A stretch of 64,000 nucleotides of DNA from Pristiophorus japonicus (lineage: Eukaryota), in assembly GCF_044704955.1 (NCBI RefSeq), contig NC_091985.1:165912001-165976000 (forward strand), in the 5' to 3' direction. Shown here piece by piece: positions 8,973 to 40,300 of this stretch. A model generated the notes under the pieces. The model saw nothing but the letters and a program-made list of their open reading frames with translations. It did not search any database and had not been told where the DNA came from. The position numbers were made by a program, and so were the translations under genes. Position 1 is the first letter of the stretch. The number at the start of each line of letters is the position of its first letter.

Positions 8973-9549
8973 TATCAGAGGCAGTCCCTCGGAATCGAGA
9001 AAGACTTGCTTCCACTCTCAGCATGAGTCCTTAGGTGGCTGAACAGTCCAATACAACTCTTTTGTAGTGAACAAATTAAACATTTAAATCGAGTGCACTC
9101 CAAACATTTTTCCAGGCCCTTTTTTTGTGTTTTTTGGGCTCTAAAACATAAATATATACAAGTGCCCCCTATAAAAGGGGAGGGGGACACTAAAACCGGC
9201 AATAAAACAAATTAAACTTTAAAACATATAAAATCAAATTAAAATTTGGTTGCCGGGGCAGTCCAATACAAGAACCACAGTCTCTGACACAGGTGGGACA
9301 GACAGTCATTGAGGAAAGGGGCGGGCAGGGAGCCTGGTTTGCCACACACTCCTTCCGCTGCCTGCGCTTGATTTCTGCATGCTCTCGGCGACGATACTCG
9401 AGGAGCTCAGCGCCCTCTCGGATGCACTTCCTCCACTTAGGGCGGTCTATGGCCAAGGACTCCCAGGTGTCAGTGGGGATGTCGCACTTTATCAGGGAGG
9501 CTTTGAGGGTATCCTTGTAACGTTTCCTCTGCCCATCTTTGGCTCGTTT
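8973..9549 (-). mobile_element. RTE 3' fragment (contains Tx1 insertion)
   Basis: GQRKRYKDTLKASLIKCDIPTDTWESLA..RPKWRK. Confidence 0.88.
9057..9258 (-). mobile_element. Tx1-clade 3' UTR fragment inserted in an RTE
   Basis: Same 3' UTR as 28466-28670 (gtgccccctataaaaggggagggggacac); 13-bp TSD CAGTCCAATACAA at 9044-9056 and 9259-9271. Confidence 0.85.
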
Positions 9550-12416: not shown

Positions 12417-15400
12417 ATAGAAACATAGAAACATAGAAAATAGGTGCAGGAGTAGGCCATTCGGCCCTTCTAGCCTGCACCGCCATTCAATGAGTTCATG
12501 GCTGAACATTCAACTTCAGTACCCCATTCCTGCTTTCTCGCCATACCCCTTGATCCCCCTAGCAGTAAGGACCTCATCTAACTCCTTTTTGAATATATTT
12601 AGTGAATTGGCCTCAACAACTTTCTGTGGTAGAGAATTCCACAGGTTCACCACTCTCTGGGTGAAGAAGTTCCTCCGCATCTCGGTCCTAAATGGCTTAC
12701 CCCTTATCCTTAGACTGTGACCCCTGGTTCTGGACTTCCCCAACATTGGGAACATTCTTCCTGCATCTAACCTGTCTAACCCCGTCAGAATTTTATATGT
12801 TTCTATGAGGTCCCCTCTCATTCTTCTGAACTCCAGTGAATACAAGCCCAGTTGATCCAGTCTTTCTTGATAGGTCAGTCCCGCCATCCCGGGAATCAGT
12901 CTGGTGAACCTTCGCTGCACTCCCTCAATAGCAAGAATGTCCTTCCTCAGGTTAGGAGACCAAAACTGTACACAATACTCCAGGTGTGGCCTCACCAATG
13001 CCCTGTACAACTGTAGCAACACCTCCCTGCCCCTGTACTCAAATCCCCTTGCTATGAAGGCCAACATGCCATTTGCTTTCTTAACCGCCTGCTGCACCTG
13101 CATGCCAACCTTCAATGACTGATGTACCATGACACCCAGGTCTCTTTGCACCTCCCCTTTTCCTAATCTGTCACCATTCAGATAATAGTCTGTCTCTCTG
13201 TTTTTACCACCAAAGTGGATAACCTCACATTTATCCACATTATACTTCATCTGCCATGCATTTGCCCACTCACCTAACCTATCCAAGTCGCTCTGCAGCC
13301 TCACAGCATCCTCCTCGCAGCTCACACTGCCACCCAACTTAGTGTCATCCGCAAATTTGGAGATACTACATTTAATCCCCTCATCTAAATCATTAATGTA
13401 CAGTGTAAACAGCTGGGGCCCCAGCACAGAACCTTGCGGTACTCCACTAGTCACTGCCTGCCATTCTGAAAAGTACCCATTTACTCCTACTCTTTGCTTC
13501 CTGTCTGACAACCAGTTCTCAATCCATGTCAGTACACTACCCCCAATCCCATGTGCTCTAACTTTGCACATCAATCTCTTGTGTGGGACCTTGTCGAACG
13601 CCTTCTGAAAGTCCAAATATACCACATCAACTGGTTCTCCCTTATCCACTCTACTGGAAACATCCTCAAAAAATTCCAGAAGATTTGTCAAGCATGATTT
13701 CCCTTTCACAAATCCATGCTGACTTGGACCTATCATGTCACCTCTTTCCAAATGCACTGCTATGACATCCTTAATAATTGATTCCATCATTTTACCCACT
13801 ACCGATGTCAGGCTGACCGGTCTATAATTCCCTGTTTTCTCTCTCCCTCCTTTTTTAAAAAGTGGGGTTACATTGGCTACCCTCCACTCCATAGGAACTG
13901 ATCCAGAGTCAATGGAATGTTGGAAAATGACTGTCAACGCATCCACTATTTCCAAGGCCACCTCCTTAAGTACTCTGGGATGCAGTCCATCAGGCCCTGG
14001 GGATTTATCGGCCTTCAATCCCATCAATTTCCCCAACACAATTTCCCGGCTAATAAGGATTTCCCTCAGTTCCTCCTCCTTACTAGACCCCCCGACCCCT
14101 TTTATAACCGGAAGGTTGTTCGTGTCCTCCTTCGTGAATACCGAACCAAAGTACTTGTTCAATTGGTCCGCCATTTCTTTGTTCCCCGTTATGACATCCC
14201 CTGATTCTGACTGCAGGGGACCTACGTTTGTCTTTACTAACCTTTTTCTCTTTACATATCTATAGAAACTTTTGCAATCCGTCTTAATGTTCCCTGCAAG
14301 CTTCTTCTCATACTCCATTTTCCCTGCCCTAATCAAACCCTTTGTCCTCCTCTGCTGAGTTCTAAATTTCTCCCAGTCCCCAGGTTCGCTGCTATTTCTG
14401 GCCAATTTGTATGCCACTTCCTTGGCTTTAATACTATCCCTGATTTCCCTTGATAGCCACGGTTGAGCCACCTTCCCTTTTTTATTTCTATGCCAGACAG
14501 GAATGTACAATTGTTGTAGTTCATCCATGCGGTCTCTAAATGTCTGCCATTGCCCATCCACAGTCAACCCCTTAAGTATCATTCGCCAATCCATCTCAGC
14601 CAATTCACGCCTCATACCTTCAAAGTTAGCCTTCTTTAAGTTCTGGACCATGGTCTCTGAATTAACTGTTTCATTCTCCATCCTAATGCAGAATTCCACC
14701 ATATTATGGTCACTCTTCCCCAAGGGGCCTCGCACAACGAGATTGCTAATTAATCCTTTCTCATTACATAACACCCAGTCTAAGATGGCCTCCCCCCTAG
14801 TTGGTTCCTCGACATATTGGTCTAAAAAACCATCCCTTATGCACTCCAGAAAATCCTCCTCCACCGTATTGCTTCCAGTTTGGTTAGCCCAATCTATGTG
14901 CATATTAAAGTCACCCATTATAACTGCTGCACCTTTATTGCACGCACCCCTAATTTCCTGTTTGATGCCCTCCCCAACATCACTACTACTGTTTGGAGGT
15001 CTGTACACAACTCCCACTAACGTTTTTTGCCCTTTGGTGTTCTGCAGCTCTACCCATATAGATTCCACATCATCCAAGCTAATGTCCTTCCTAACTATTG
15101 CCTTAATCTCCTCCTTAACCAGCAATGCTACCCCACCTCCTTTTCCTTTTATTCTATCCTTCCTGAATGTTGAATACCCCTGGATGTTGAGTTCCCAGCC
15201 CTGCTCATCCTGGAGCCACGTCTCCGTAATCCCAATCACATCATATTTGTTAACATCTATTTGCACAGTTAATTCATCCACCTTATTGCGGATACTCCTT
15301 GCATTAAGACACAAAGCCTTTAGGCTTGTTTTTTTAACACCCTCTGTCCTTTTAGAATTTTGCTGTACAATGGCCCTTTTTGTTCTTTGCCTTGGGTTTC

Positions 15401-15713
15401 TCTGCTCTCCACTTTTCCTCATCTCCTTTCTGTCTTTTGTTTTTGCCTCCTTTTTGTTTCCCTCTATCTCCCTGCATTGGTTCCCATCCCCCTGCCATAT
15501 TAGTTTAACTCCTCCCCAACAGCACTAGCAAACACTCCCCCGAGGACATTGGTTCCGATTCTGCCCAGGTGCAGACCGTCCGGATTGTACTGGTCCCACC
15601 TCCCCCAGAACCGGTTCCAATGCCCCAGGAATTTGAATCCCTCCCTGCTGCACCATTGCTCAAGCCACGTATTCATCTGAGCTATCCTGCGATTCCTACT
15701 CTGACTAGCACGT
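12417..15713 (-). mobile_element. Young CR1 LINE with intact ORF2, 5'-truncated within ORF1
   Basis: (ATAGAAAC)n tail at 12417; TSD GGTAC 12412-12416 / 15714-15718. Confidence 0.95.
12516..15422 (-). CDS. CR1 ORF2: APE endonuclease + reverse transcriptase, 968 aa, uninterrupted
   Basis: CLNARS, ITETWL, GDFN, SDH (APE); [30 protein letters not shown] (RT). Confidence 0.95.
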   Translation of the reverse strand: MRKSGEQRNPRQRTKRAIVQQNSKRTEGVKKTSLKALCLNARSIRNKVDELTVQIDVNKYDVIGITETWLQDEQGWELNIQGYSTFRKDRIKGKGGGVALLVKEEIKAIVRKDISLDDVESIWVELQNTKGQKTLVGVVYRPPNSSSDVGEGIKQEIRGACNKGAAVIMGDFNMHIDWANQTGSNTVEEDFLECIRDGFLDQYVEEPTRGEAILDWVLCNEKGLISNLVVRGPLGKSDHNMVEFCIRMENETVNSETMVQNLKKANFEGMRRELAEMDWRMILKGLTVDGQWQTFRDRMDELQQLYIPVWHRNKKGKVAQPWLSREIRDSIKAKEVAYKLARNSSEPGDWEKFRTQQRRTKGLIRAGKMEYEKKLAGNIKTDCKSFYRYVKRKRLVKTNVGPLQSESGDVITGNKEMADQLNKYFGSVFTKEDTNNLPVIKGVGGSSKEEELREILISREIVLGKLMGLKADKSPGPDGLHPRVLKEVALEIVDALTVIFQHSIDSGSVPMEWRVANVTPLFKKGGREKTGNYRPVSLTSVVGKMMESIIKDVIAVHLERGDMIGPSQHGFVKGKSCLTNLLEFFEDVSSRVDKGEPVDVVYLDFQKAFDKVPHKRLMCKVRAHGIGGSVLTWIENWLSDRKQRVGVNGYFSEWQAVTSGVPQGSVLGPQLFTLYINDLDEGIKCSISKFADDTKLGGSVSCEEDAVRLQSDLDRLGEWANAWQMKYNVDKCEVIHFGGKNRETDYYLNGDRLGKGEVQRDLGVMVHQSLKVGMQVQQAVKKANGMLAFIARGFEYRGREVLLQLYRALVRPHLEYCVQFWSPNLRKDILAIEGVQRRFTRLIPGMAGLTYQERLDQLGLYSLEFRRMRGDLIETYKILTGLDRLDAGRMFPMLGKSRTRGHSLRIRGKPFRTEMRRNFFTQRVVNLWNSLPQKVVEANSLNIFKKELDEVLTARGIKGYGEKAGMGY

Positions 15714-21681: not shown

Positions 21682-24285
21682 TAGAAAAAATAGAAACATC
21701 GAAAATAGGTGCAGGAGCAGGCTATTCAGCCCTTCTAGCCTGCACCGCCATTCAACGAGTTCATGGCTGAACATGAAACTTCAGTACCCACTTCCTGCTT
21801 TCACGCCATACCCCTTGATCCCCCGAGTAGTAAGGACTTCATCTAACTCCCTTTTGAATATATTTAGTGAATTGGCCTCAACTACTTCCTGTGGTAGAGA
21901 ATTCCACAGGTTCACCACTCTCTGGGTGAAGAAGTTTCTCCTTATCTCGGTCCTAAATAGCTTACCCCTTATCCTTAGACTGTGACCCCTGGTTCTGGAC
22001 TTCCCCAACATTGGGAACATTCTTCCTGCATCCAACCTGTCCAAACCCGTCAGAATTTTAAACGTTTCTATGAGGTCCCCTCTCACTCTTCTGAACTCCA
22101 GTGAATACAAGCCCAGTTGATCCAGTCTTTCTTGATAGGTCAATCCCACCATCCCGGGAATCAGTCTGGTGAATCTTCGCTGCACTCCCTCAACAGCAAG
22201 TATGTCCTTCCTCAAGTTAGGAGACCAAAACTGTACACAATACTCCAGGTGTGGCCTCACCAAGGCCCTGTACAACTGTAGCAACACCTCCCTGCCCCTG
22301 TACTCAAATCCCCTCGCTATGAAGGCCAACATGCCATTTGCTTTCTTAACCGCCTGCTGTACCTGCATGCCAACCTTCAATGACTGATGTACCATGACAC
22401 CCAGGTCTCGTTGCACCTTCCCTTTTCCTAATCTGTCACCATTCAGATAATAGTCTGTCTCTCTGTTTTTACCACCAAAGTGGATAACCTCACATTTATC
22501 CACATTATACTTCATCTGCCACGCATTTGCCCACTCACCTAACCTATCCAAGTCACTCTGTAGCCTCATAGCATCCTCCTCGCAGCTCACACTGCCACCC
22601 AACTTAGTGTCATACGCAAATTTGGAGATACTACATTTAATCCCTTCGTCTAAATCATTAATGTATAATGTAAACAGCTGGGGCCCCAGCACAGAACCCT
22701 GCGGTACCCCACTAGTCACTGCCTGCCATTCCGAAAAGTACCCATTTACTCCTACTCTTTGCTTCCTGCCTGACAACCAGTTCTCAATCCACATCAGCAC
22801 ACTACCCCCAATCCCATGTGCTTTAACTTTGCACATTAATCTCCTGTGTGGGACCTTGTCGAAAGCCTTCTGAAAGTCCAAATATACCACATCAACTGGT
22901 ACTCCTTTGTCCACTTTATTGGAAACATCCTCAAAAAATTCCAGAAGATTTGTCAAGCATGATCTCCCTTTTACAAATCCATGCTGACTTGGACCTATCA
23001 TGTCACCATTTTCCAAATGCGCTGCTATGACATCCTTAATAATTGATTCCATCATTTTACCCACTACTGAGGTCAGGCTGACCGGTCTATAATTCCCTGC
23101 TTTCTCTCTCCCTCCTTTTTTAAAAAGTGGGGTTACATTGGCTACCCTCCACTCGATAGGAACTGATCCAGAGTCAATGGAATGTTGGAAAATGACTGTC
23201 AATGCATCCGCTATTTCCAAGGCCACCTCCTTAAGTACTCTGGGATGCAGTCCATCAGGCCCTGGGGATTTATCGGCCTTCAATCCCATCAATTTCCCCA
23301 ACACAATTTCCCGACGAATAAAGATTTCCCTCAGTTCCTCCTCCTTAATAGACCCTCTGACCACTTTTATATCCGGAAGGTTGTTTGTGTCCTCCTTAGT
23401 GAATATTGAACCAAAGTACTTGTTCAATTGGTCTGCCATTTCTTTGTTCCCCGTTATGACTTCCCCTGATTCTGACTGCAGGGGACCTACGTTTGTCTTT
23501 ACTAACCTCTTTCTCTTTACATACCTATAGAAACTTTTGCAATCCGCCTTAATGTTCCCTGCAAGCTTCTTCTCGTACTCCATTTTCCCTACCCTAATCA
23601 AACCCTTTGTCCTCCTCTGCTGAGTTCTAAATTTCTCCCAGTCCCCAGGTTCGCTGCTATTTCTGGCCAATTTGTATGCCACTTCCTTGGCTTTAATACT
23701 ATCCCTGATTTCCCTAGATAGCCACGGTTGAGCCACCTTCCCTTTTTTATTTTTACGCCAGACAGGAATGTACAATTGTTGTAATTCATCCATGCGTTCT
23801 CTAAATGTCTGCCATTGCCCATCCACAGTCAACCCCTTAAGTATCATTAGCCAATCTATCTTAGCCAATTCATGCCTCATACCTTCAAAGTTACCCTTCT
23901 TTAAGTTCTGGACCATGGTCTCTGAATTAACTGTTTCATTCTCCATCCTAATGCAGAATTCCACCATATTATGGTCACTCTTCCCCAAGGGGCCTCGCAC
24001 AATGAGATTGCTAATTAATCCTCTCTCATTACACAACACCCAGTCTAAGATGGCCTCCCCCCTAGTTGGTTCCTCGACATATTGGTCTAGAAAACCATCC
24101 CTTATGCATTCCAGGAAATCCTCCTCCACCGTATTGCTTCCAGTTTGGCTAGCCCAATCTATGTGCATATTAAAGTCACCCATTATAACTGCTGCACCTT
24201 TATTGCATGCACTCCTAATTTCCTGTTTGATGCCCTCCCCAACATCACTACTACTGTTTGGAGGTCTGTACACAACTCCCACTAA
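21682..24285 (-). mobile_element. Young CR1, 5'-truncated, RT catalytic motif mutated (FAYD)
   Basis: ORF 21781..24336 near-identical to 12516..15422; TSD CAAACA 21676-21681 / 24286-24291. Confidence 0.95.
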
Positions 24286-24391
24286 CAAACAAGTCAAGAA
24301 GGACAAGGAGGGATAGTTTACCTTTGTCACAGTCACTAAAGATGTAATTTCTGACTTTGATGAGAGCCGTTTCGGTACTGTGGCAGGCGTG

Positions 24392-24635
24392 TGTCATGTA
24401 TGTAACCTTTATGTAACAACACTGCAATATTGTATATACGTAAGAAATGCACACCTTGACCACAGGGGGTGAACTTGTGGGAGACACTCCTGACCTGGTC
24501 ATCCAGGTATATAAAGGGAGGTCCCACGCAGGCTCATCACTTCTTGGTCCTGTGAATAAAGGTTCAGGTCATGGAGTGACCTTGTGCAAAGAATGTGCCT
24601 CGTGTGGGTTTGTGGTATTGTGTAATGGCTTTACA
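24392..24635 (+). mobile_element. Solo LTR
   Basis: TG...CA ends, TATATAAA and AATAAA inside, perfect 5-bp TSD GCGTG (24387-24391 / 24636-24640). Confidence 0.9.
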
Positions 24636-27600
24636 GCGTGGAAACCGGATAGGAGGGATTCAAACATGGAATTGCAGCAAAGATGGGCACGGATTTAGGA
24701 GGCAACAAATCATTTAAGGACTTTGGAGAGGAAAGGGAGGTTGGAGATGGGGCAGTAGTTTACAAGGACAGAGGGATCGAGGTTTTTTTTGAGAGGGGTG
24801 ATGACAGCAGATTTGAGGGAGAGGGGGACAGTACCTGAGGAGAATGAACCATTAACAACATCAGCTAACATGGGAGCCAGAAAAGGAAGTTGGGTGGTCA
24901 GCAGTTTGGTGGGAATAGGGTCAAGGGAGCAGGAAGTGGGTCTCATGGACAGAATGAGCTCAGAAAAGTCATGAGGGGAGATTGGAGAGAAACTGGAGAA
25001 AGATGTGAAGTCAGGGCTAGGGCAAGGGGCTTCCTTAGGGGAAGTTTGGCCCGGTGGGCTAGGAGAAGGGAAGAGGCAGAGGCAGCCGAACGCATGGTCT
25101 CAATCATAGCGACGAAGAAGTCCATGAGCTCCTCACTTATTGTCGGAGGTGAGGGTGGAGACTGGGGAGAGGGGTTTAAAAATGATTCTGGAATAGTGAA
25201 CCATTTTGGCAGCAGAGAGCAGGACCCGATAGTGCTTTATGTGGTCCAGCCAGATCTGGCGGTGAATCACTAACCCAGTTGTCCGCCATATCCGTTTAAG
25301 TCTACATCCCTTGGACTTAAGGGAGCGAAGATCAGGGGGAATGGTCAGGGTGAGAGAGAGTAATTGTTTTAACAGGGTCTAGGGCATCAAAGGTGGTGGT
25401 GAGGGTGTGATTGAGCAGATCACTAGCTGCAGAAATGTCAGGGTGAATGGAGGGCCAAAGGCTGGACAGTTGGGAGTTGCTGTGCAGTTGTAAGAGAGTC
25501 GGGCAAGAGTTTGTTCCAGGGGCATGTAGGTTTGGGGGTTTGGAAGGGGGATGTGGGTGGAAAGTGATACGAGGAAGTGGTCAGATAAGGTCAGAGATGG
25601 CCTTATCTGCGATGGACACGATGGGAGTAGCGAGGCCACGAGACATGGCAAGGTCGAGGGGCTGGCCGTGAATATGATTGGGGAGATTAAGGATGAACTC
25701 AGAGCAGAGAGAACATGGTGAATTGAGATGGAGGTTGAAATCACCAAGAATGAGAAGTCGTTCTGTGCAGAGGCAAAGGGAGGAAAGTAGTGAAGAAATA
25801 TCGGTAATAAAATGTTTATGGTACTTGGGTGGGCGGTAGAGAACGGGAATTTCTCATCAATAAATCATCTACCTAGTGTCCTGAGACGTCACTCCTGTTT
25901 TTTTTGTTGTTTTAGCATTTGCCGGATTTGTACCGCCTCCTCTGGTGCCGACTCTGCTCAGGTCCGCGCTTCCTCTCATCCCACTCTATTTATGGTCTGC
26001 CAAGGGCCTCCTCCGGTGCTGACTCCGTTTAGGTCCTGGGATCGGTGGAGGCATACTGTCATTCAATGCAATGATATAAATCTCACCAAAATGCATTATT
26101 GTATGATTTACACATGGTGTCATTGTAATAAAAATTATACGTTTTTCTTCTGGTTCTTCCAAATAGAAAATAGCATTTGCAAAACACTATTTTTTCACGT
26201 TTTACTACGTCAAAGGCGCTATATAAATACAAGTTGTAGCTGTTAATATACTGCCCCTATACTTGAAAGATGCATTTCTATACAGTATTTAACCAGAGTT
26301 TACTAAGAACAGTCACAATTCTTTAAACACAGTGTTTGTTTCCCCTGGTTGGAGTGTCTAGAACTAGGGATCACAGTCGCAGGATAAGGGGAAGACCATT
26401 TATGACAGAGATGAGGAGGAATTTCTTTAGTCAGATGGTTGTGAATCTTTGGAATTCTCTGCCCAAAGGGCTGTGGATGCCGAGTCTCTGAATATATTCA
26501 CGGCTCAATGAACAAAATGTTGAATTATTGTGGGTGGAGATTAGAGATAGTAAGGGGAAAAAGTCACTGGTCGGCGTAGTTTATAGGCCCCCAAATAATA
26601 ACTTCATGGTGGGGCGGGCAATAATCAAGGGAATAATGGAGGCATGTGAAAAAGGAACGGCAGTAGTTATGGGGGATTTTAACCTACATATCGATTGGTC
26701 AAATCAAATCGCAGGGGGTAGCCTGGAGGAGGAATTCATAGAATGCATACGGGATTGTTTCTTAGAACAGTATGTAACAGAGCCTACAAGGGAGCAAGCC
26801 ATTTTGGATCTGGTCCTGTGTAACGAGACAGGAAAAATAAACGATCTCCTCGTAAAAGATCCTCTCGGAATGAGTGATCACAATATGGTTGAATTTGTAA
26901 TACAGATTGAGGATGAGGAAGTTGTGTCAGAAACGAGCGTACTATGCTTAAACAAAGGGGACTACAGTGGGATGAGGGCAGAGTTGGCTAAAGTAGACTG
27001 GAAACAAGGACTAAACGGTGGCACAATTGAGGAACAGTGGAGGACTTTTAAGGAGCTCTTTCATAATGCGCAACAAAAATATATTCCAGTGAAAAAGAAG
27101 GGCGGCAAGAGAAGAGATAACCAGCCGTGGATAACCAAGGAAATTAAGGTAAGTATCAAATCAAAGACCAATGCGTATAAGGTGGCCAAGGTTAGTGGGA
27201 AACTAGAGGATTGGGAATATTTTAAGCAACAGCAAAGAATGACTAAAAAAGCAATAAAGAAAAGGAAGATAGATTACGAAGGTAAACTTGCGCAAAACAT
27301 AAAAACAAATAGTAAAAGCTTTTACAGATATATAAAACGGAAAAGAGTGACTAAAGTAAATGTTGGTCCCTTAGAAGATGAAAAGGGGGATTTAATAATG
27401 GGAAATGTGGAAATGGCTGAGACCTTAAACAATTATTTTGCTTCCGTCTTCACAGTGGAAGACACAAAAACCATGCCAAAAATTGCTGGTCATAGGAATG
27501 TGGGAAGGGAGGACCTTGAGATGATCACTATCACTAGGGAGGTAGTGCTGGACAGACTAATGGGACTGAAGGTAGACAAGTCCCCTGGTCCTGATGAAAT

Positions 27601-28465
27601 GCATCCCAGGGTATTAAAAGAGATGGCGGAAGTTATAGCAGATGCATTTGTTATAATCTACCAAAATTCTCTGGACTCTGGGGAGGTACCAGCGGATTGG
27701 AGAGCAGCTAATGTAACGCCTCTGTTTAAAAAAGGGGGCAGGCAAAAGGCAGGTAACTATAGGCCGGTTAGTTTAACATCTGTAGTGGGGAAAATGCTTG
27801 AAACTATCATTAAGGAAGAAATAGCGGGAAATCTGGATAGGAATAGTGCAATCAAGCAGACGCAGCATGGATTCATGAAAGGGAAATCATGTTTAACTAA
27901 TTCACTGGAATTCTTTGAGGATATAACGAGCATGGTGGATAGAGGTGTACCGATGGATGTGGTGTATTTAGATTCCCAAAAGGCATTCGATAAGGTGCCA
28001 CACAAAAGGTTACTGCAGAAGATAAAGGTACGCGGAGTTAGAGGAAATGTATTAGCATGGATAGAGAATTGGCTGGCGAACAGAAAGCAGAGAGTCGGGA
28101 TAAATGGGTCCTTTTCCGGTTGGAAATCAGTGGTTAGTGGTGTGCCACAGGGATCAGTGCTGGGACCACAACTGTTTACAATATACATAGATGACCTAGA
28201 GGAGGGGACAGAGTGTAGTGCAACAAAATTTGCAGATGACACTAAGATTAGTGGGAAAGCGGGTTCTGTAGAGGGCTCAGAGAGGCTGCAAAGAGATTTA
28301 GATAGGTTAAGCGAATGGGCTAAGGTTTGGCAGATGGAATACAATGTCGGAAAGTGTGAGGTCATCCACCTTGGGAAAAAAAACAGTAAAAGGGAATATT
28401 ATTTGAATGGGGAGAAATTACAACATGCTGTGGTGCAAAGGGACCTGGGAGTCCTTGTGCATGAA

Positions 28466-28987
28466 ACTCTTTTTAGGAGAAAACAAAAAACATTAAACCG
28501 TGCCCCCCGATCTGGGGGAAACACCAACATTTACAAGGCCCTTTTTTTTTGGCACAGAATCAAATTTTTTCTCCAAGTGCCCCCTATAAAAGGGGAGGGG
28601 GACACTAAAAGCACCGGCAATTAAAACAAATTAACTTAAAAACATAAAATCAAATTAAAATTTGGTTGCCGGGCGTGATGATGCACTCCAGTTCCTCCGG
28701 TGCCCACCTCTCGTGGAAGGCCGCGAGCGTACCGGTGGACACCGCGTGCTCCATCTCCAAGGACACCCTGGACCGGATGTATGCGCGGAAGAGAGGCAGG
28801 CAGTCTGGTTGAACGACCCCCTCGACCGCCCGCTGCCTGGACCGGCTGATGGCACCCTTGGCCGTGCCCAGGAGCAGTCCTACGAGGAGGCCCTCGGACC
28901 TACCCGCTCCCCTCCGCACAGGGTGCCCGAAGATCAGGAGTGTGGGACTGAAGTGCAGCCAGAATTTCAGGAGCAGCCCCTTTAAAT
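28466..28987 (-). mobile_element. Tx1-clade LINE 3' fragment (ORF2 C-terminus + 3' UTR) inserted in CR1
   Basis: ORF 28650..28919 (LLVGLLLGTAKGAISRSRQRAVEG...FHERWAP) resembles the Tx1/L1 ORF2 C-terminus; TSD TCCTTGTGCATGAA at 28452-28465 and 28988-29001. Confidence 0.85.
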
Positions 28988-29028
28988 TCCTTGTGCATGA
29001 AACTCTTTTAGGGTTCCTTATGCATGAA

Positions 29029-29411
29029 ACTCTTTTTGGATTTTTAAATTTTTTTAAATTTTTTTTTTATTTTAAATTTTTCGTTGCCAATCTTTCCAAT
29101 TCTTTGTCAAATCACAAACGCCAGAGGTCACCTTGCACACATCAAGGATCACTCTGCGCCAATGCTCTTAGCCAAAAGGCCGAGAGCCACTGCACCGTTC
29201 CTGGAAATACTGCAATACCAGGTTCGTGCCATGGAGGTGGATGGGTCAGGCCCCCCACACACCTCCGTGGAGGTGGATGGGTCAAGCCACCCCACCCACC
29301 TCCTATTTCCAAAAAGCATAGGAGAACCACCTTCCTGATCCAGGGAGAACCACTTTGGGGTCATGGTTACTCCCCTGTCAGGTCAGTTACGCATGATCTT
29401 AGCCAAAAGGC
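29029..29411 (-). mobile_element. U2/U1 snRNA-derived chimeric retroposon (SINEU-like) with A-rich tail
   Basis: Minus strand reads, in order: U2 5' (GCCTTTTGGCTAAGATCA), U1 5' (AACTGACCTGACAGGGGAGTAACCATGAC...), U2 Sm/SLIII-like, U2 3' (ACCTGGTATTGCAGTATTTCCAGGAACGGTGCA), U2 5' again (TCTCGGCCTTTTGGCTAAGA), unique segment, then A-rich tail ending AAAAAGAGT. Confidence 0.85.
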
Positions 29412-30337
29412 AGGAATCCCAAAAGGTTAGTTTGCAGGTGCAGCAGGTAATCAGGAAGGCAAATGGAATGTTGGCCTTCATTGCGAAAGGGATGGAGTAC
29501 AAAAGCAGGGAGGTGTTGCTGCAACTGTATAAGGTATTGGTAAGGCCGCACCTGGAGTACTGCGTGCAGTTTTGGTCACCTTACTTATGGAAGGATATAC
29601 TAGCTTTGGAAGGGGTACAGAGACGATTCACTAGGCTGATTCGAGAAATGAGGGGGTTACCTTATGATGATAGATTGAGTAGACTGGGTCTTTACTCCTT
29701 GGAGTTCAGAAGGATGAGGGGTGATCTTATAGAAACATTTAAAATCATGAAAGGGATAGACAAGATAGAGGCAGAGAGGTTGTTTCCATTGGTGGGGGAG
29801 ACTAGAACTAGGGGTCACAGCCTCAAAATACGGAGGAGCCAATTTAAAATCGAGTTGAGAAAGAATTTCTTCTCCCAGAGGGTTGTGAATCTGTGGAATT
29901 TTCTGTCCAAGGAAGCAGTTGAGGCTAGCTCATTGAATGTTTTCAAGTCAAAGATAGATAGATTTTTAAGCAATAAGGGAATTAAGGGTTACAGGGAGAG
30001 GGCGGGTAAGTGGAGCTGAGTCCACGACCAGATCAGCCACGATCTTATTGAATGGCGGAGCAGGCTCGAGGGGCTAGATGGCCTACTCCTGTTCCTAATT
30101 CTTATGTTCTTATGTTCTCAGATAGATAAAACTCAGAGTTTTTGAGTCTAGGGAAATCAAGGGATATGGGGATCGGGCGTGAAAATGGAGTTGAGGTCGA
30201 TGATCAGCTATGATCTTCTTGAAGGGCGGAGCAGGCTCGAGGGGCCATTGGGCCTACTCCTGCTCCTATTTCTTATCGAACTGTCATGACATTTCAATGA
30301 AATGCCGATATGTTACGCAGAAGGAAGAAAAGACATA

Positions 30338-31038: not shown

Positions 31039-31464
31039 TGAAATTGCAGTGTCTGCCATGGCGCTGAATGGTTTCAGGGATGAGGGACTTCAGTTACGTG
31101 GTTAGACTGGAGAAGCTGGGGTTATTCTCCTTCGAGCAGAGAAGGTTGAGAGGTGATTTGGTGATTGGCAGGAGAGCCAAAGGCGACATGAGGAAAAACT
31201 TTTTTATGCAACAAGCGGTTAGGATTGGCAATGCACTGCCTGAAAGGGTGATGGAGGCAGATTCAATCGTTTCTTTCAATCGTGGCTTTCAAAAAGGTAT
31301 TGGATAAATACCTGAAGGAAAAGAAATTGCAGGGCCATGGGGAAAGGAAGGGGGAATGGGACTAGCTGGATTGCTCTTGTAGAAAACCAGCACAGGCGCA
31401 ACGGGACGAATGGCCTCCTTCTGTGCTGACTCTTTTAAATACTGGCAGTTGGCAATTAAAAGTC

Positions 31465-32620
31465 ACAGAATCATAAAAATTTACAGCACAGAAGGAGGCC
31501 ATTTCGGCCCATCGTGTCCGTGCCGGCCAACCAAGAGCTATCCAGCCTAATCCCTCTCTCCAGCTCTTGGTCCATAGCCCTGTAGGTTACAGCACTTTAA
31601 GTGCACATCCAAGTATTTTTTAAATGTGGTGAGTGTTTCTGCCTCGACAACCCTTTCAGGCAGTTTGTTCCAGACCCCCACCACCCTCTGGGTGAAGAAA
31701 CTTCCCCTCATATCTCCTCTATACCTCCCCCAATAACTTTAAATCTATGCCCCCTGGTTGTTGACCCCTCTGTCAAGGGAAACGGGTCCTTCCTATCCAC
31801 TCTATCCAGGCCCCTCATAATTTTATACCCCTCAATCAGGCCACCCCTCAGCCTCCTTTGTTCCAAAGAAAACAGACCCAGTATCTCCAATCTTTCCTCA
31901 TAGCCAAAGTTCTGCAGTCCAGGCAACATTCTTGTAAATCTCCTCTGCACCCTCTCCATCTTTCCTGTAATGTGGTGACGAGAACTGCACGCAATGCGCC
32001 AGCTGCGGCCTAACCAGTGTTTTATACAGTTCAAGTAAAACCTCCTTGCTTTTGTATTCCATGCTTCGACTTATAAAGGCACATATTCCATATGCCTTCT
32101 TAACCACCTTATCTACCTGGCCTGCTACCTTCAGGGATCTGTGGACCTGCACTCCAAGGTCCCTTTGTTCCTCTACACTTTTCAGGGTTGTACCATTTAC
32201 TGTGTACTCCCTTGCCTTGTTAGACGTCCCCAAATGCATTACCTCACACTTATCCGGATTGAATTCCATTTGCCACTGTTCTGCCCACCTGACCAGTACA
32301 TTGATATCTTCCTGCAGTCCGCAGCTTTCTTTTTCATTATCAACCACACAGCCTATTTCAGTGTCATCTGAAAACTTCTTAATCATACCCCCAACATTCA
32401 AGTCTAAGTCATTGATATATACCACAAAAAGAAAGGGGCCAGCACTGAGCCCTGTGGAACCCCACTGGATACAGCCTTCCAGTCACAAAAACACCCATCA
32501 ACCATTACCCTTTGCTTCCTGCCTCTGACTCAATTTTGGATACAACTTGCCACTTTGCCTTGGATCCCATGGGCTTTTACTTTTGTGACCAGTCTGCCAT
32601 GTGGGACTTTATCAAGGCCT
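31465..32620 (-). mobile_element. CR1 RT 3' fragment
   Basis: ORFs 31708 and 31898 (YINDLD, FSDD, YKTLVRPQL). Confidence 0.88.
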
Positions 32621-33760
32621 TGAGCGCGCCAGCGGACACCGTCTGCTCCATCCCCAGGGACACCCGGACGCGAACTTTGCCGTCGAAGAGAGCGAGGCGG
32701 TCGGGCCGAATGACCCCCTTCGACAGTCGGAACGACCCCCTTCGATGACCCCCTTCGACCGGCCCCAACGACCCCCTTCGACTGGCCCGAACTTTGACCG
32801 GCCCGAACTTCGACCGGCCCGAACTTCGACTGGCCCGAACTTCGACCGGCCCGAACGACCCCCTTCGACCGGCCCGAACTTCGACCGGCCCGAACTTCGA
32901 CCGGCCCGAACGACCCCCTTCGACCGGCCTGAACTTCGACCGGCCCGAACTTCGACCGGCCCGAACGACCCCCTTCGACCGGCCTGAACTTCGACTGGCC
33001 CGAACGACCCCCTTCGACCGGCCCGAACTTCGACCGGCCCGAACGACCCCCTTCGACCGGCCTGAACTTCGACCGGCCCGAACTTCGACCGGCCCGAACG
33101 ACCCCCTTCGACCGGCCTGAACTTCGACTGGCCCGAACGACCCCCTTCGACCGGCCCGAACTTCGACCGGCCCGAACGACCCCCTTCGACCGGCCTGAAC
33201 TTCGACTGGCCCGAACGACCCCCTTCGACCGGCCTGAACTTCGACTGGCCCGAACGACCCCCTTCGACCGGCCTGAACTTCGACTGGCCCGAACAACCCC
33301 CTTCGACCGGCCTGAACTTCGACCGGCCTGAACTTCGACCGGCCTGAACAACCCCCTTCGACCAGCCTGAACTTCGACCAGCCTGAACTTCGACCGGCCT
33401 GAACAACCCCCTTCAACCGGCCTGAACTTCGACCGGCCCGAACAACCCCCTTCGACCGGCCTGAACTTCGACCGGCCCGAGCTTCGACCAGCCTGAACTT
33501 CGACCGGCCCGAACAACCCCCTTCGACCGGCCTGAACTTCGACCGGCCCGAACAACTCCCTTCGACCAGCCTGAACTTCGACCGGCCCGAACGACCCCCT
33601 TCGACCGGCCCGAACAACCCCCTTCGACCGGCCCGAACAACCCCCTTCGACCAGCCTGAACGATCCCCTTCGACCGGCGACGGTCCGAACGGCCCCCTTC
33701 GACTGGCCCGCTGCCTGCGACCTGTTGAGGGCCACTTTTGCCGGACCCAGGGCAGTTGGT
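32621..33760 (-). mobile_element. Tx1-clade LINE ORF2 C-terminal remnant hosting the minisatellite
   Basis: Left flank encodes GVIRPDRLALFDGKVRVRVSLGMEQTVSAGAL, matching GVVQPDCLPLFRAYIRSRVSLEMEHAVSTGTL at 28650..28919. The right flank (ggcccgctgcctgcgacctgttgagggccacttttgccggacccagggcag) aligns to 28828-28878. Confidence 0.8.
32707..33710. repeat. CpG-rich composite minisatellite (16-bp CGACCGGCCCGAACTT and 23-bp CGACCGGCCCGAACGACCCCCTT units)
   Basis: Directly visible tandem units with C/T and G/A variants; explains the overlapping repetitive ORFs 32530-34403. Confidence 0.95.
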
Positions 33761-33779
33761 TAGGTGTCCACAGCCGCTC

Positions 33780-34320
33780 TGTGATTGGACAGCCAAGCAG
33801 GTGGCGGTTGTCAATGGAAAACCGAAGTACGCGCCATTTGGCGCGCGCGCACAATGACGTCGCCACGCCGCCGACGCTCAAAACCCGAGGCACGCAAAAC
33901 TGCACGTCGCCGCGTCGGTGTTTGGCGGAGGCAGCACGCGCGTGCGCCGTGACCTTTCCCCCCTCTCTCCCACTGCGTGCTGGCGGCCCGGGCAAAGGGA
34001 GCGAGAGGCGATGGCGAGCTCGGGGAGGAAGCGCATGCTGAAGGATGAGGACATCTCCAAGGTGGAGTTCGAGACCAGCGAGGAGGTGGACGTCACCCCC
34101 ACCTTCGACACCATGGGGCTGCGGGAGGACCTGCTGCGGGGCATCTACGCGTACGGTGAGTGCGGGCCGGCCCGGGCCTAGATAGAAAGGAGGCCTCCCG
34201 CTCTCGCCGGCCGCTCCTCCGCTGGGCGCACGCCGGGGGCTGGCGGCCCGAGGGTGCCGAGGAGAGGGGGAAACAGGGGAGTTGAAAGCCGGGGCTCCCG
34301 GCCTGTACCTGGCGCCGTCA
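33780..34320 (+). promoter_or_regulatory. eIF4A3 CpG-island promoter / 5' region
   Basis: High CpG density; inverted CCAAT (ATTGG 33784), YY1-like CGCCATTT (~33832), CRE-like TGACGTCG (33855), GCGC runs; no obvious TATA box. Confidence 0.75.
34011..34155 (+). CDS. EIF4A3: eIF4A3 exon 1 ([10 protein letters not shown]...RGIYAY-G)
   Basis: ATG in gcgATGG context; donor G|gtgagt. Confidence 0.96.
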
Positions 34321-37300: not shown

Positions 37301-40300
37301 TTATAATCGCTCAACCATTGGTGGCCGTGCCTTCTATTGCCTTGGCCTTAAGCTCTGGCATTCCCTGTCTAAACCTCTCTGCTTTTCTACCTCACCTCCT
37401 TCAATACGCTCCTTAAAACCTAACTATTTGGCCAAGCTTTTGGTCACTTGCCCTAATTTCTCCTTATGTGGCTTGGTGTCAAATTTTTTGTCTCATAATA
37501 CGTCTGTGAAGCGCCTTGGGACGTTTCACTACGTTAAAGGTGCTATATAAATACATGTTGTTGTAGATGAGGAGGGGAGGGAGGAAGTCCATATGGAGCA
37601 TAAATACCGGCATGGGTCTGTTGGGCTGAATGACCTGTTTCTGTGCTGTAAAAACTTCGTAATACTTTGTAGTAAATTATAGTGAGATGTGACATGAGAC
37701 AAGTGGTTAGGATTTGGAATGCACTGCCTGATAGGATAGTGGATCATCATCATCATCGAGGACGGCTTGCTTCCACTCTATATAAAAGTGAGTTCTGAGG
37801 TGATTGAACAGTCCACTTCGGGAATTACAGTCTCTGCCACAGGTGGGGCAGACAGAGGTTGAAGGAAAGGGTGGGTGGGGAGTCTGGTTTGCTGCATGCT
37901 CCTTCTGCTGTCTGTGCATGATTTTCGCATGCACTCGGATAAATATTCAATAGTAGCTTTCAAAAGAGAATTGGATAAATACTTGGAGAAAAAATAGCAA
38001 GGATATGGGGAAAGAATGGAGGAGTGGGACTAACTGGATTGCTCTTTGAAAGAGACAGCACAAACTCGATGGGCCGAATGGCCTCCTGCGCCATATGATT
38101 CCATACGAAGCACGATGTTTTACAGCAGTTTTCAAATATTTGTGTGTGATGTACCCTTTGTACAAATTGATGAACTTCCAGTCCCAAGGACCTGCTGATC
38201 TTAAGGGCCGTGTTAGCTACCCAAAGAAGAACCGTGCTGGTGTTACATAGAAACATAGAAATTTACAGCGCAGGAGGAGGCCATTCCGGCCCATCGTGTC
38301 CGCGCCGACCGACAAAGAGCCACACGGCCCTTGGTCAGCAGCCCTGAAGGTTACATATAAACGTATGAACAATGATGGAAAGGCAAAGAGCACCCAGCTG
38401 CTTCACACAACTGTGACACCCCTTATGCTGAAACATTCTACACTCTTCCGCAACCAAAGCCATGTGATCTCCTGGGAGAGGCAAAAACCAGATTAAAAAC
38501 CCAGGTCAATTTAGGGAGAAAAAAATCTGGGAAAATTCCTCTCCGACCCATCCAGGTGATCGAAACTAGTCCAGGAGATCACCCTGGCCGTATTCGATTC
38601 CCTGCAGTACTTACCATTAATACTGCGTAGGCCAACAAAAGGTCATCCAGTCTAATCCCAATTACCAGCTCTAGATCTGTAACCCTGCAGGTTACGGCAC
38701 TTCAAGTGCCCATCCAACCATCTCTTAAAAGTGGTGAGGGTTTCTGCATCCACCACTCTTCCAGGCAGCGAGTTCCAGATCTCCACAACCCTCTGTGTAA
38801 AGAAGCCCCCCCCCAAATCCCCTCTAAACCTTCCACCAACCACCTTAAAACTATGCCCCCTCGTAATAGACCCCTCCACCAATGGAACTAGGCCCTTACT
38901 ATCCACTATGTCCAGGCCCCTCAATATTTTGTATACCTCAATGAGATCTCCTCTCAACCTCCTGTTCCAATGAGAACAAACCTAGCGTATCCAATCTGTC
39001 CTCGTAACTAAGATTCTCCATTCCAGGCAGCATCCTAGTAAATCTCCTCTGCGCCCTCTTTAGTGCAATCACGTCCTTCCTATAATACGGCGACCAGAAT
39101 TGCACGCAGTACTCCAGCTGTGGCCTAACCAAAGTATTATACAATTTAAGCATATATTCTATGCCTCGGCCAATGGCCTGCTACCTTCAGGGATCTGTGG
39201 ACAAGCACTCCAAGGTCCCTTTGTTCATCTACACTATTAGGTGGCGTACCGCTTAATGTGTATATCATTTCCTTATTAGCCCTCCCAAAGTGCATCACCT
39301 TACACTTCTCTGAATTAAATTCCATTTGCCATTGCTCTGCCCACCTGACCAGTAGATGGATATCCTCCTGCAGCCCATGACTTTCCTCTTCATTATCAAT
39401 CACACAGCCAATTTTAGTGTTGTCTGCAAACTTCTTAATCATACTCCCTATATTCAAATCTAAATCGTTGATATATACCACAAAAAGTAAGGGACCCAAT
39501 ACTGAGCCCTGCGGAATCCCACTGGAAACATCCTTCCAGTCACAAAAACATCCATCAACCATTACCCTTTGCTTCCTACCTCCAAGCCAATTTTGGATCG
39601 AACTTGCCACTTTGTCCTGGATCCCATGGGCTGTAATCTTCTTGATCAGTCTACCATGTGGGACCTTATCAAAAACTTTGCTAAAGTTCATATACACTAG
39701 ATCGTATGCGCTACCCTCATCGACCCTCTTGGTTACCTCAAAAAATTCAATCGGGTTAGTCAAACACGATCTTCCCATAACAAATCCATGCTGACTGTCC
39801 CTAGTTAATCCCTGCCTTTCCAAATGTAGATTTATCCTGTCTTTCAGGTTTTTTTCCAATAATTTTCCCACCACTGAGGTTAGGCTGACAGGCCTGTAAT
39901 TACTCGGCCTATCCCTTTCTCCTTTCTTAAATAAGGGTACTACATTAGCAGTCCTCCAATCCTCTGGCACCATGCCCAAATCCAAAGAGAACTGCAAAAT
40001 GATGGTCAAGGCCTCTGCTATTTTCTCTTTTACTTCGTTCAACAGCCTGGGATGCTTTTTTTCCGGGCCTGGGGACTTGGCTACTTTCAAAGCTGCTAAA
40101 CCCCTTAATATTTCCCCTCTATATTTATTTCATCTGGAATATCACATTCTTCCTCGATAGCAGTATCTGCATTACCCCTTTCCTTTGTGAAAACAAATGC
40201 AAAGTATTCGTTAAGAACCTTACCAACATCTTCCGCCTCCACACAAAGATTACCATCGTGGTCTTTAATAGGCCCTACCCTTTCTTTAGTTACCCTCTTA

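What the first reader, a model, noticed from the sequence alone, without database searches (positions are those of the whole stretch)
32621..33760. CpG-rich minisatellite born inside a Tx1 ORF, abutting the eIF4A3 promoter
Seen: ~1 kb of mixed 16-bp and 23-bp units, with variant polarity (GAACGACCC on the left, GAACAACCC on the right). Both flanks are collinear with the unexpanded Tx1 copy at 28725-28880, where the seed GAACGACCCCCTCGACCGCCCG occurs once, so ancestor and expanded state are in the same window. The array ends ~300 bp before the ATG and ~75 bp before the inverted CCAAT box. It keeps many CpGs, as expected if unmethylated or recently expanded. Established knowledge: human EIF4A3 has an unrelated 18/20-nt repeat in its 5' UTR whose expansion lowers expression (Richieri-Costa-Pereira syndrome). 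Inference: a convergent, TE-derived VNTR that may tune this dosage-sensitive gene.
Basis: partly seen in the sequence, partly recalled or inferred. Interest (0 to 1): 0.7.

Follow-up and report, generated by a model that had tools for sequence, protein, structure and literature searches.

The report
Retrotransposon-born minisatellite beside eIF4A3 promoter
In a cartilaginous fish, a short piece of a dead retrotransposon lying just upstream of the essential eIF4A3 gene has been copied about fifty times into a 1-kb repeat; this is a clear but ordinary case of a transposon giving birth to a minisatellite, with no evidence yet that it affects the gene.

Summary
A 999-bp array (32710-33708; 27 units of 16 bp, 21 of 23 bp, 3 odd) sits inside a ~140-bp remnant of an L1/Tx1-group ORF2 end. 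Both flanks align, in order, to the unexpanded copy at 28.7-28.9 kb (0 of 2000 shuffles each). It ends 75 bp before an inverted CCAAT box and 302 bp before the eIF4A3 ATG.

Three corrections:
(1) The 28.8-kb copy is a ~75%-identical cousin with a 21-bp seed, not the ancestor.
(2) The CpG richness reflects recent copying rather than protection. 41 of 45 unit differences are CpG transitions (6 of 8 possible types versus 3 of 15 elsewhere, p=0.017), and decay is heavier next to the promoter.
(3) It differs from the human repeat in sequence, probably in position (upstream, not 5' UTR) and probably in methylation; none of 11 promoter motifs occurs in it.

Length polymorphism and any effect on expression are untested. 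'Tx1' is probable but not shown by phylogeny. Best reading: a locus-born, transposon-derived minisatellite at a CpG-island edge, probably near-neutral. This is a known kind; the 'convergent dosage tuner' reading remains a minority possibility.

The parts
28474..28987 (-). Unexpanded, 5'-truncated L1/Tx1-group LINE copy: last 111 codons of ORF2 plus 3' UTR, inserted in another LINE; cousin of the array's host
   Evidence: 22-bp direct repeat at 28452-28473 and 28988-29009; peptide hits 96 proteins; 43% identical to the C-terminus of a 1306-aa endonuclease+RT protein, P0118
28811..28832 (+). Single-copy seed in the cousin copy (21-bp repeat-unit equivalent; encodes part of the ORF2 end on the minus strand)
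31464..32620 (-). CpG-poor LINE fragment (CR1-type label recalled) that cuts off the 3' side of the host remnant; 6 bases at 32614-32619 fit both elements
   Evidence: 75% match to 38630-39672; CpG o/e 0.25; RT-like frame
32621..32709 (-). Left flank: ORF2 remnant downstream of the seed; CpG-rich (13 CpG, o/e 1.2)
   Evidence: aligns to 28725-28808, 0 of 2000 shuffles; tblastn E 7e-8
32710..33708 (.). Minisatellite: 51 parsed units (27x16 bp, 21x23 bp, 3 odd terminal units); the 16-mer is the 23-mer minus 7 bp; higher-order periods 39/55/78/94; a perfect 195-bp internal duplication at 133-bp offset from 32879
33709..33756 (-). Right flank: ORF2 remnant upstream of the seed; detectable homology ends at 33756
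   Evidence: aligns to 28831-28878, 0 of 2000 shuffles; no extension beyond
33784..33788 (-). Inverted CCAAT box, 75 bp from the array; not shown to be transposon-derived
33785..34010 (+). TATA-less CpG-island promoter and probable 5' UTR of eIF4A3: YY1-like 33832, E2F-like 33837, CRE half-site 33855, NRF1-like 33842 and 33938, pyrimidine (TCT-like) initiator candidates 33953-33970 (motif definitions recalled)
   Evidence: CpG o/e 1.27 and motif scan; start site inferred, not measured
34011..34155 (+). eIF4A3 coding exon 1, followed by a GT donor at 34156
   Evidence: E 8e-22 to human eIF4AIII; sequence

Best explanation
A locus-born, transposon-derived minisatellite at the upstream edge of the eIF4A3 CpG island, probably near-neutral. 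Steps: (1) an L1/Tx1-group LINE inserted antisense just upstream of the promoter and decayed to a ~140-bp ORF2 remnant (shown). (2) A 23-bp segment bounded by a 7-bp imperfect direct repeat was duplicated by slippage or unequal exchange (segment shown; mechanism inferred). (3) A 7-bp deletion created the 16-mer, and blocks of 16- and 23-mers were then copied as higher-order units, helped by the self-complementary, hairpin-prone unit (structure shown; cause inferred). (4) The array is at least partly methylated in the germ line, so CpGs decay, but block copying outruns decay and keeps it CpG-rich (signature shown; methylation inferred). (5) It lies outside the mRNA, upstream of the CCAAT box, and has little or no effect on eIF4A3 output (inferred, untested). 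Confidence in steps 1-3 alone is about 0.9; the figure given is for the whole statement.
For: Collinear flanks. Relatives carry zf-RVT upstream of this segment (7 of 34 scanned at E<=0.01, 3 at or above the cut-off), and a full-length relative has endonuclease and RT domains. The left junction has CGGGCCG where internal junctions have CGGCCCG, 6 of 7 alike, the arrangement of the Haber-Louis model as summarised in PMC6947457. Terminal units are 23-mers or degenerate and 16-mers are internal only. There is a perfect 195-bp duplication at 133-bp offset. Single-strand DNA folding gives z -5.75, 0 of 20 shuffles. 41 of 45 differences from the majority unit are CpG transitions; 6 of 8 possible CpG transition types are seen against 3 of 15 at other positions (Fisher p=0.017), or 2 of 9 at non-CpG C/G (p=0.044). 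Intact CpG slots are 70 of 81 in the distal half and 53 of 84 in the promoter-side half. LINEs are hypermethylated in a cartilaginous fish (PMC5437953). 0 hits of 11 promoter motifs in the array against 9 hits of 6 motifs in 33691-34020, and two out-of-frame ATGs (33814, 33854) lie between array and start codon. No array 8-mer occurs in any of 135 fetched proteins, and no protein scored with the array peptide among 1964 candidates.
Against: The mutation test rests on 10 distinct variant types, and units are not independent. An unmethylated CpG may still mutate somewhat faster than other sites (recalled), so p=0.017 against equal rates is only moderate evidence of methylation. The left flank keeps 13 CpGs against 8 in the cousin copy (o/e 1.2), which long-term methylation would not predict. 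123 of 165 CpG slots are intact. In humans, expression-associated VNTRs are 7.9-fold enriched within 2 kb of start sites and are GC-rich (10.1101/2020.12.16.423078), so near-neutrality is a default, not a result. The start site was not measured. The protein searches are insensitive to arrays in non-coding copies, and no genome was held, so locus specificity is only weakly tested.
Confidence: 0.62

Rival explanations
1. Regulatory VNTR. The array varies in length among individuals and modulates eIF4A3, either by spreading methylation toward the CCAAT box or by extending the CpG island and shifting upstream nucleosomes; the first reader's convergent dosage tuner.
For: It lies 75 bp from the CCAAT box and about 245 bp from a candidate initiator, is 67% GC with 135 CpGs, and has a recent perfect duplication. 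In humans 2,980 of 70,787 VNTRs were expression-associated, enriched 7.9-fold near start sites; TRIB3 is a causal promoter example (PMC7425993 abstract). Human EIF4A3 is dosage-sensitive and repeat-regulated (PMC5996909). 13% of 25-bp windows in the array pass a G4Hunter threshold of 1.2 against 2.9% in the window.
Against: No allele-length or expression data. None of 11 promoter motifs occurs in the units. No similarity to the human motif: 1340 and 1612 of 2000 shuffles score as high. The human repeat acts from the 5' UTR and without methylation, so the mechanism would not be the same.
Confidence: 0.22
2. Family-borne array. The repeat arose in an active subfamily of the LINE, as in SVA or LTR12, and was delivered here by retrotransposition, so it is dispersed rather than locus-born.
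For: The host differs about 25% from the only informative copy in the window, so its own subfamily was not seen. The sense-strand frames are stop-free across the array (409 and 612 aa). Arrays spread by transposition are described for LTR12 (PMC3389668).
Against: Units of 16 and 23 bp break the ORF2 frame just before its end. 80 of 98 homologous proteins align across the seed with no insertion of 5 aa or more (biased toward unexpanded copies), and none of 135 contains an array 8-mer. No protein matched the array peptide. Only one coded organism was listed as holding the words. Stop-free frames follow from the unit's composition.
Confidence: 0.1
3. The array is an unmethylated, long-standing extension of the promoter CpG island, kept CpG-rich by protection rather than by recent copying.
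For: The left flank has CpG o/e 1.2 and more CpGs than the cousin copy; array o/e is 1.36; start sites of expressed genes are hypomethylated in elephant shark.
Against: CpG-transition excess. Decay is stronger toward the promoter. The 76 bp between array and CCAAT box have o/e 0.53.
Confidence: 0.15
4. Assembly artefact: part of the length or the perfect internal duplication was made by the assembler.
For: A 195-bp perfect duplication; no read spanning the array was examined.
Against: Four runs of one sample, possibly the window's own source and so not independent, hold 0.73-0.85 of the sampled words, while at most 358 of 959 distinct 31-mers come from the flank and promoter stretches. A second sample has a contig identical over 33700-33778 that runs 51 letters past 33700 on the array side. 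The interspersed variant pattern is complex.
Confidence: 0.04

Closest known systems
Transposon-derived minisatellites (Alu-, B1-, MaLR- and LTR12-derived; PMC3389668 passages, PMC6947457 passages and table; SINE-derived satellites of reptiles, PMC10702118 abstract)
   Same: A unit copied from an internal piece of a transposon, with both flanks continuing the element, a short imperfect direct repeat at the seed, polar variant distribution and local growth. At least 7,276, or 23%, of human minisatellites/satellites were reported as transposon-derived.
   Different: The donor is the coding end of an L1/Tx1-group ORF2 in a cartilaginous fish; I saw no Tx1-derived case in the listings. Two unit lengths related by a 7-bp deletion are interleaved in higher-order blocks.
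Human EIF4A3 5' UTR 18/20-nt repeat (Richieri-Costa-Pereira syndrome; PMC5996909)
   Same: Same gene; a GC- and CpG-rich array of two unit lengths with internal variants near the 5' end.
   Different: No sequence similarity. The human array is 2-17 units inside the 5' UTR, 1.7-2.8% methylated, polymorphic, and lowers reporter output. This one is about 51 units, upstream of the CCAAT box, shows a CpG-decay signature, and has no polymorphism or function shown.
Promoter expression-VNTRs (TRIB3 33-bp VNTR, PMC7425993 abstract; eVNTR/mVNTR survey, 10.1101/2020.12.16.423078)
   Same: A GC-rich minisatellite within a few hundred bases of a start site.
   Different: The TRIB3 unit contains a C/EBP-ATF element and has a proven copy-number effect. 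Here none of 11 scanned motifs occurs in the unit and there are no copy-number data.
Tx1-clade non-LTR retrotransposons (PMC4494074, parts 1-2)
   Same: Endonuclease+RT ORF2 of about 1300 aa in a relative, zf-RVT before the C-terminal segment, 13- and 22-bp target duplications at two copies, and a U2/U1-like element next to one copy.
   Different: No call named the family Tx1 and no RT tree was built; target specificity was not tested.

Membership tests
Transposon-derived minisatellite | Head-to-tail units of 10-100 bp, beyond chance | tested here: met
   TRF score up to 773; 51 units of mainly 16 and 23 bp
Transposon-derived minisatellite | Unit homologous to an internal piece of a transposon, with both flanks continuing that element in order | tested here: met
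   Both flanks 0 of 2000 shuffles; seed single in the cousin copy
Transposon-derived minisatellite | Short (5-10 bp) direct repeats bounding the seed (Haber-Louis birth model) | tested here: inconclusive
   6 of 7 bases alike at the left junction of the array, but not in the cousin copy; too short for statistics (model)
VNTR | Copy number differs between alleles or individuals | not tested
   No read or contig spanning the array was examined. One other sample holds 0.38 of the words and the right junction region, which says nothing on length.
Tx1 clade LINE (host) | ORF2 with APE endonuclease and RT, L1 group | tested here: met
   Shown through relative P0118 (PF03372+PF00078; 43% identical over residues 1195-1302), which matches human L1 ORF2p at E 1e-75 over residues 4-847 only
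Tx1 clade LINE (host) | Placement in the Tx1 clade by RT phylogeny | not tested
   No named Tx1 reference was returned; the label rests on recall of this C-terminal type
Tx1 clade LINE (host) | Target-site duplication; frequent target preference | tested here: inconclusive
   22-bp and 13-bp duplications at two other copies; the host remnant has lost its 3' end; preference not testable with three copies
Regulatory promoter VNTR (TRIB3 type) | Unit carries a transcription-factor element | tested here: not met
   0 hits in the array for 11 recalled motif patterns; a small panel, other factors not excluded
Regulatory promoter VNTR (TRIB3 type) | Copy number associates with or causes expression change | not testable with these tools
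   No paired genotype-expression or reporter data
EIF4A3 RCPS-type repeat | Located in the 5' UTR | tested here: inconclusive
   The array lies upstream of the CCAAT box and of two out-of-frame ATGs, 245 bp from a candidate initiator; start site not measured, probably not met
EIF4A3 RCPS-type repeat | 18/20-nt motif sequence | tested here: not met
   1340 and 1612 of 2000 shuffled motifs align as well
EIF4A3 RCPS-type repeat | Unmethylated | tested here: inconclusive
   Indirect only: the CpG-transition excess points to methylation; the CpG-rich left flank points the other way

The most novel reading that the evidence does not exclude
The array is a length-polymorphic, methylation-sensitive rheostat that a dead LINE donated to the eIF4A3 promoter, possibly read through by the promoter's upstream antisense transcript in the LINE's own sense direction. 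Cartilaginous fish and humans would then have independently put unrelated CpG-rich repeats in control of the dose of the same craniofacial and neural gene.
Probability: 0.12. Interest if true: 0.62.

Novelty: new member of a known kind. Interest (0 to 1): 0.3.

Why it matters
As it stands, it is a tidy natural record of minisatellite birth: seed, flanks, unit shortening, block duplication and CpG decay can all be read in one window. It is also a likely multi-allelic marker beside an essential gene. It would matter more if length or methylation were shown to change eIF4A3 output, because that would be a second, independent case of repeat control over this dosage-sensitive exon-junction-complex gene, about as far from humans as jawed vertebrates go. 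Nothing here shows that yet.

Tried and rejected
1. The CCAAT box as a transposon gift. A by-eye resemblance suggested the LINE continued to about 33840; alignments of 33757-33860 to the cousin copy scored at or below shuffle means (1228-1932 of 2000 shuffles as high, 8 tests) and the family profile gave nothing. Rejected.
2. The host's lost 3' end at 31428-31463: 134 and 429 of 2000 shuffles score as high against two 3' ends. Not supported.
3. A hairpin around the seed in the cousin copy: z 0.50. Rejected.
4. P0013 and P0065, multi-stretch hits that might have been tandem LINE pieces, are unrelated repetitive proteins; they were dropped before the count of 98.
5. The 409- and 612-aa stop-free antisense frames over the array are not treated as genes: no protein matched (lengths 82-263 only).
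6. Whole-genome count of the array: no genome is held.
7. Sequencing runs: no RNA holder listed. Two rows with a share of 0.00 are no evidence. On 33700-34010, three of four runs laid nothing (X1, X3, X6) and X5 left 33779-33980 uncovered; a filter drops contigs, so these holes prove nothing. X5's second contig starts at 33981 behind an adapter-like end (Tn5-type, recalled), but the library type is not on record and contigs cannot give start, strand or level, so I use it neither for the start site nor for antisense transcription. X5's share of 0.38 cannot be split between array and non-array words.
8. Naming the family: three cluster look-ups and one Atlas search returned no Tx1 name.
9. Rfam at gathering threshold: 0 matches in the window.
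10. Earlier scan notes: none by sequence or place; one by words.
11. Dating from the perfect duplication was not attempted; 195 bp is too short.

Full report
Setting. The window is LINE-rich animal DNA. The named close relatives of the element studied here come from Pristis pectinata, Pristiophorus japonicus and Rhincodon typus (8 of the 10 proteins looked up), so the source is most likely a cartilaginous fish. No genome is held for it.

The array. Tandem Repeats Finder reports one long array in 64 kb, with periods 16, 23, 39, 55, 78 and 94 between 32710 and 33678. Cutting at the shared unit start gives 51 units: 27 of 16 bp, 21 of 23 bp and 3 irregular ones of 22, 13 and 29 bp, which lie at the two ends (one search gave 50 because its pattern merged two 16-mers). 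The 16-mer is the 23-mer lacking 7 bp and occurs only internally. As single-stranded DNA the array folds better than all 20 shuffles (z -5.75). Four sub-stretches gave z -2.1 to -3.4, and 13% of 25-bp windows pass a G-quadruplex score of 1.2 against 2.9% window-wide.

The host. Left flank 32622-32705 aligns to 28725-28808 and right flank 33709-33756 to 28831-28878, in order, each beating all 2000 shuffles. The seed stands once between them in that copy. The copy (28474-28987, minus strand) is bounded by a 22-bp direct repeat. Its 111-residue peptide finds 96 proteins at E up to 0.001. Of 34 of these scanned against Pfam, 7 show zf-RVT (3 at or above the curated cut-off) and 2 weak RVT_1 upstream of the matching segment; 18 show nothing, and the rest show other families, including host genes with a piece of the element annotated into them. 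A profile search found a 1306-residue turtle protein with endonuclease and RT domains (P0118), whose last 108 residues are 43% identical to the peptide. P0118 matches human L1 ORF2p over residues 4-847 only. The host is therefore the ORF2 end of an L1-group LINE that is not L1 proper at its C-terminus. 'Tx1' is the likely clade (recalled, and consistent with PMC4494074 parts 1-2), but no call returned that name and no tree was built. The flanks are 65 of 90 and 38 of 49 columns identical to the copy, and the array unit has two more bases than the copy's seed: the copy is a cousin, not the ancestral state. Homology stops at 33756; an apparent extension over the CCAAT box failed all 8 shuffle tests.

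The gene. Exon 1 (ATG 34011) and a later exon match human eIF4AIII at E 8e-22 and 3e-25. From the array end (33708) it is 75 bp to the inverted CCAAT box, 245 bp to a pyrimidine initiator candidate and 302 bp to the ATG. Between 33691 and 34020, 6 of 11 recalled promoter motifs give 9 hits; in the array all 11 give none. Two out-of-frame ATGs (33814, 33854) lie between array and start codon. I infer that the array is upstream of the mRNA; the start site was not measured.

Methylation signature. Against the majority unit, the 48 regular units show 45 differences of 10 types. 41 differences are CpG transitions. Six of the 8 possible CpG transition types are present, against 3 of 15 transitions elsewhere (one-sided Fisher p=0.017) or 2 of 9 at non-CpG C/G (p=0.044). 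All four variants present in several copies are CpG transitions. Five of 10 pairs of features show all four combinations, meaning recurrent mutation or exchange between units. Intact CpG slots are 70 of 81 in the distal half and 53 of 84 in the promoter-side half (units are not independent, so I give its p-value no weight). The 76 bp between array and CCAAT box have CpG o/e 0.53, against 1.27 beyond. This fits a repeat that is methylated at least at times in the germ line and stays CpG-rich through copying, in a group where LINEs are hypermethylated and active start sites are not (PMC5437953 passages). Against it: the test has only 10 variant types, 123 of 165 slots are intact, and the left flank has 13 CpGs where the cousin has 8.

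Is it elsewhere? In the window the long unit has no match with up to 4 mismatches outside the array, and the short unit has 2 isolated ones. 80 of 98 homologous proteins align across the seed with no insertion of 5 residues or more, and none of 135 fetched proteins contains an 8-mer of the array's translations. A search with the array peptide scored nothing among 1964 candidates. These tests are biased toward unexpanded, coding-like copies. The run search listed 7 runs, all one coded organism: four of one sample hold 0.73-0.85 of 106 sampled words (possibly the window's own source), and one of a second sample holds 0.38. That second sample has a contig identical over 33700-33778 that continues 51 letters beyond 33700 on the array side.

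Mechanism. Shown: seed, collinear flanks, derivation of the short unit, block duplication, CpG-biased variation, position. Inferred: first duplication by slippage between short imperfect repeats (6 of 7 bases alike at the left junction; model as summarised in PMC6947457); growth by unequal exchange or conversion, which is usually polar (PMC3389668 passages); germ-line methylation; near-neutrality. I put the origin at about 0.9, the whole near-neutral reading at 0.62 and a regulatory role at about 0.2. The prior comes from a human survey in which 2,980 of 70,787 VNTRs associated with expression, 7.9-fold enriched near start sites (10.1101/2020.12.16.423078, abstract and first third of Results).

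Comparison. Transposon-derived minisatellites are common: at least 23% of human minisatellites/satellites, with SINE-derived cases in reptiles (PMC10702118 abstract). The human EIF4A3 repeat (PMC5996909, parts 1-3 of 4) is in the 5' UTR, has 2-17 units, is 1.7-2.8% methylated and lowers reporter output. It shares no sequence with this array. The parallel is thus one of gene and neighbourhood only. I saw no report of this array or of a Tx1-derived minisatellite in the listings (15 of 475 shown; 7 of 8; 12 of 12; 25 of 130); these are listings of an open-access library, not a full survey, and no supplements were read. One earlier AI note on elephant shark judged tandem repeats beside CpG islands to be ordinary; I did not check it.

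Verdict. A real feature, correctly described, with its origin essentially as proposed; methylation state probably misjudged; function unshown. New member of a known kind, interest 0.3. The convergent-rheostat reading has probability about 0.12 and would deserve about 0.6.

Noticed in passing
window 29040-29421, minus strand: A composite small element with U2 snRNA similarity (E 2e-6, 39.3 bits, below the gathering score of 46) and weaker U1 similarity (E 0.0013), an A-rich tail and the same terminal letters as the neighbouring LINE copies, inserted together with the L1/Tx1-group copy into another LINE. It resembles SINEU, which PMC4494074 found only in crocodilians; the listing (12 of 3,570 shown) showed no shark report. 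Single copy in the window; SINE status untested.
   Followed up: partly
window 9055-9257, minus strand: A second, extremely 5'-truncated copy of the same LINE family: about 200 bp, 92% identical to the 28.5-kb copy over 103 bp, with a 13-bp target duplication. Too short to contain the seed.
   Followed up: partly
window 12516-15524, minus strand: A stop-free 1002-residue frame of an RT-encoding LINE (CR1-type label recalled), with further long frames at 21781-24393 and 26492-28624: recent LINE activity around the gene.
   Followed up: no
window 33700-33778 and 33981 onward (run X5): A second sample of unrecorded library type has one contig over 33700-33778 running toward the array and another starting at 33981 behind an adapter-like end. 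If this were RNA it would fit divergent transcription, but the data cannot show that.
   Followed up: partly
proteins P0014, P0045, P0078, P0099, P0100: Pieces of this LINE's ORF2 end are annotated inside host gene models (for example dynein heavy chain, kinesin-like, monoglyceride lipase-like and collagen-like proteins): exonised fragments or annotation errors.
   Followed up: no
window 29232-29303: A 36-bp tandem duplication inside the U2-like element.
   Followed up: no
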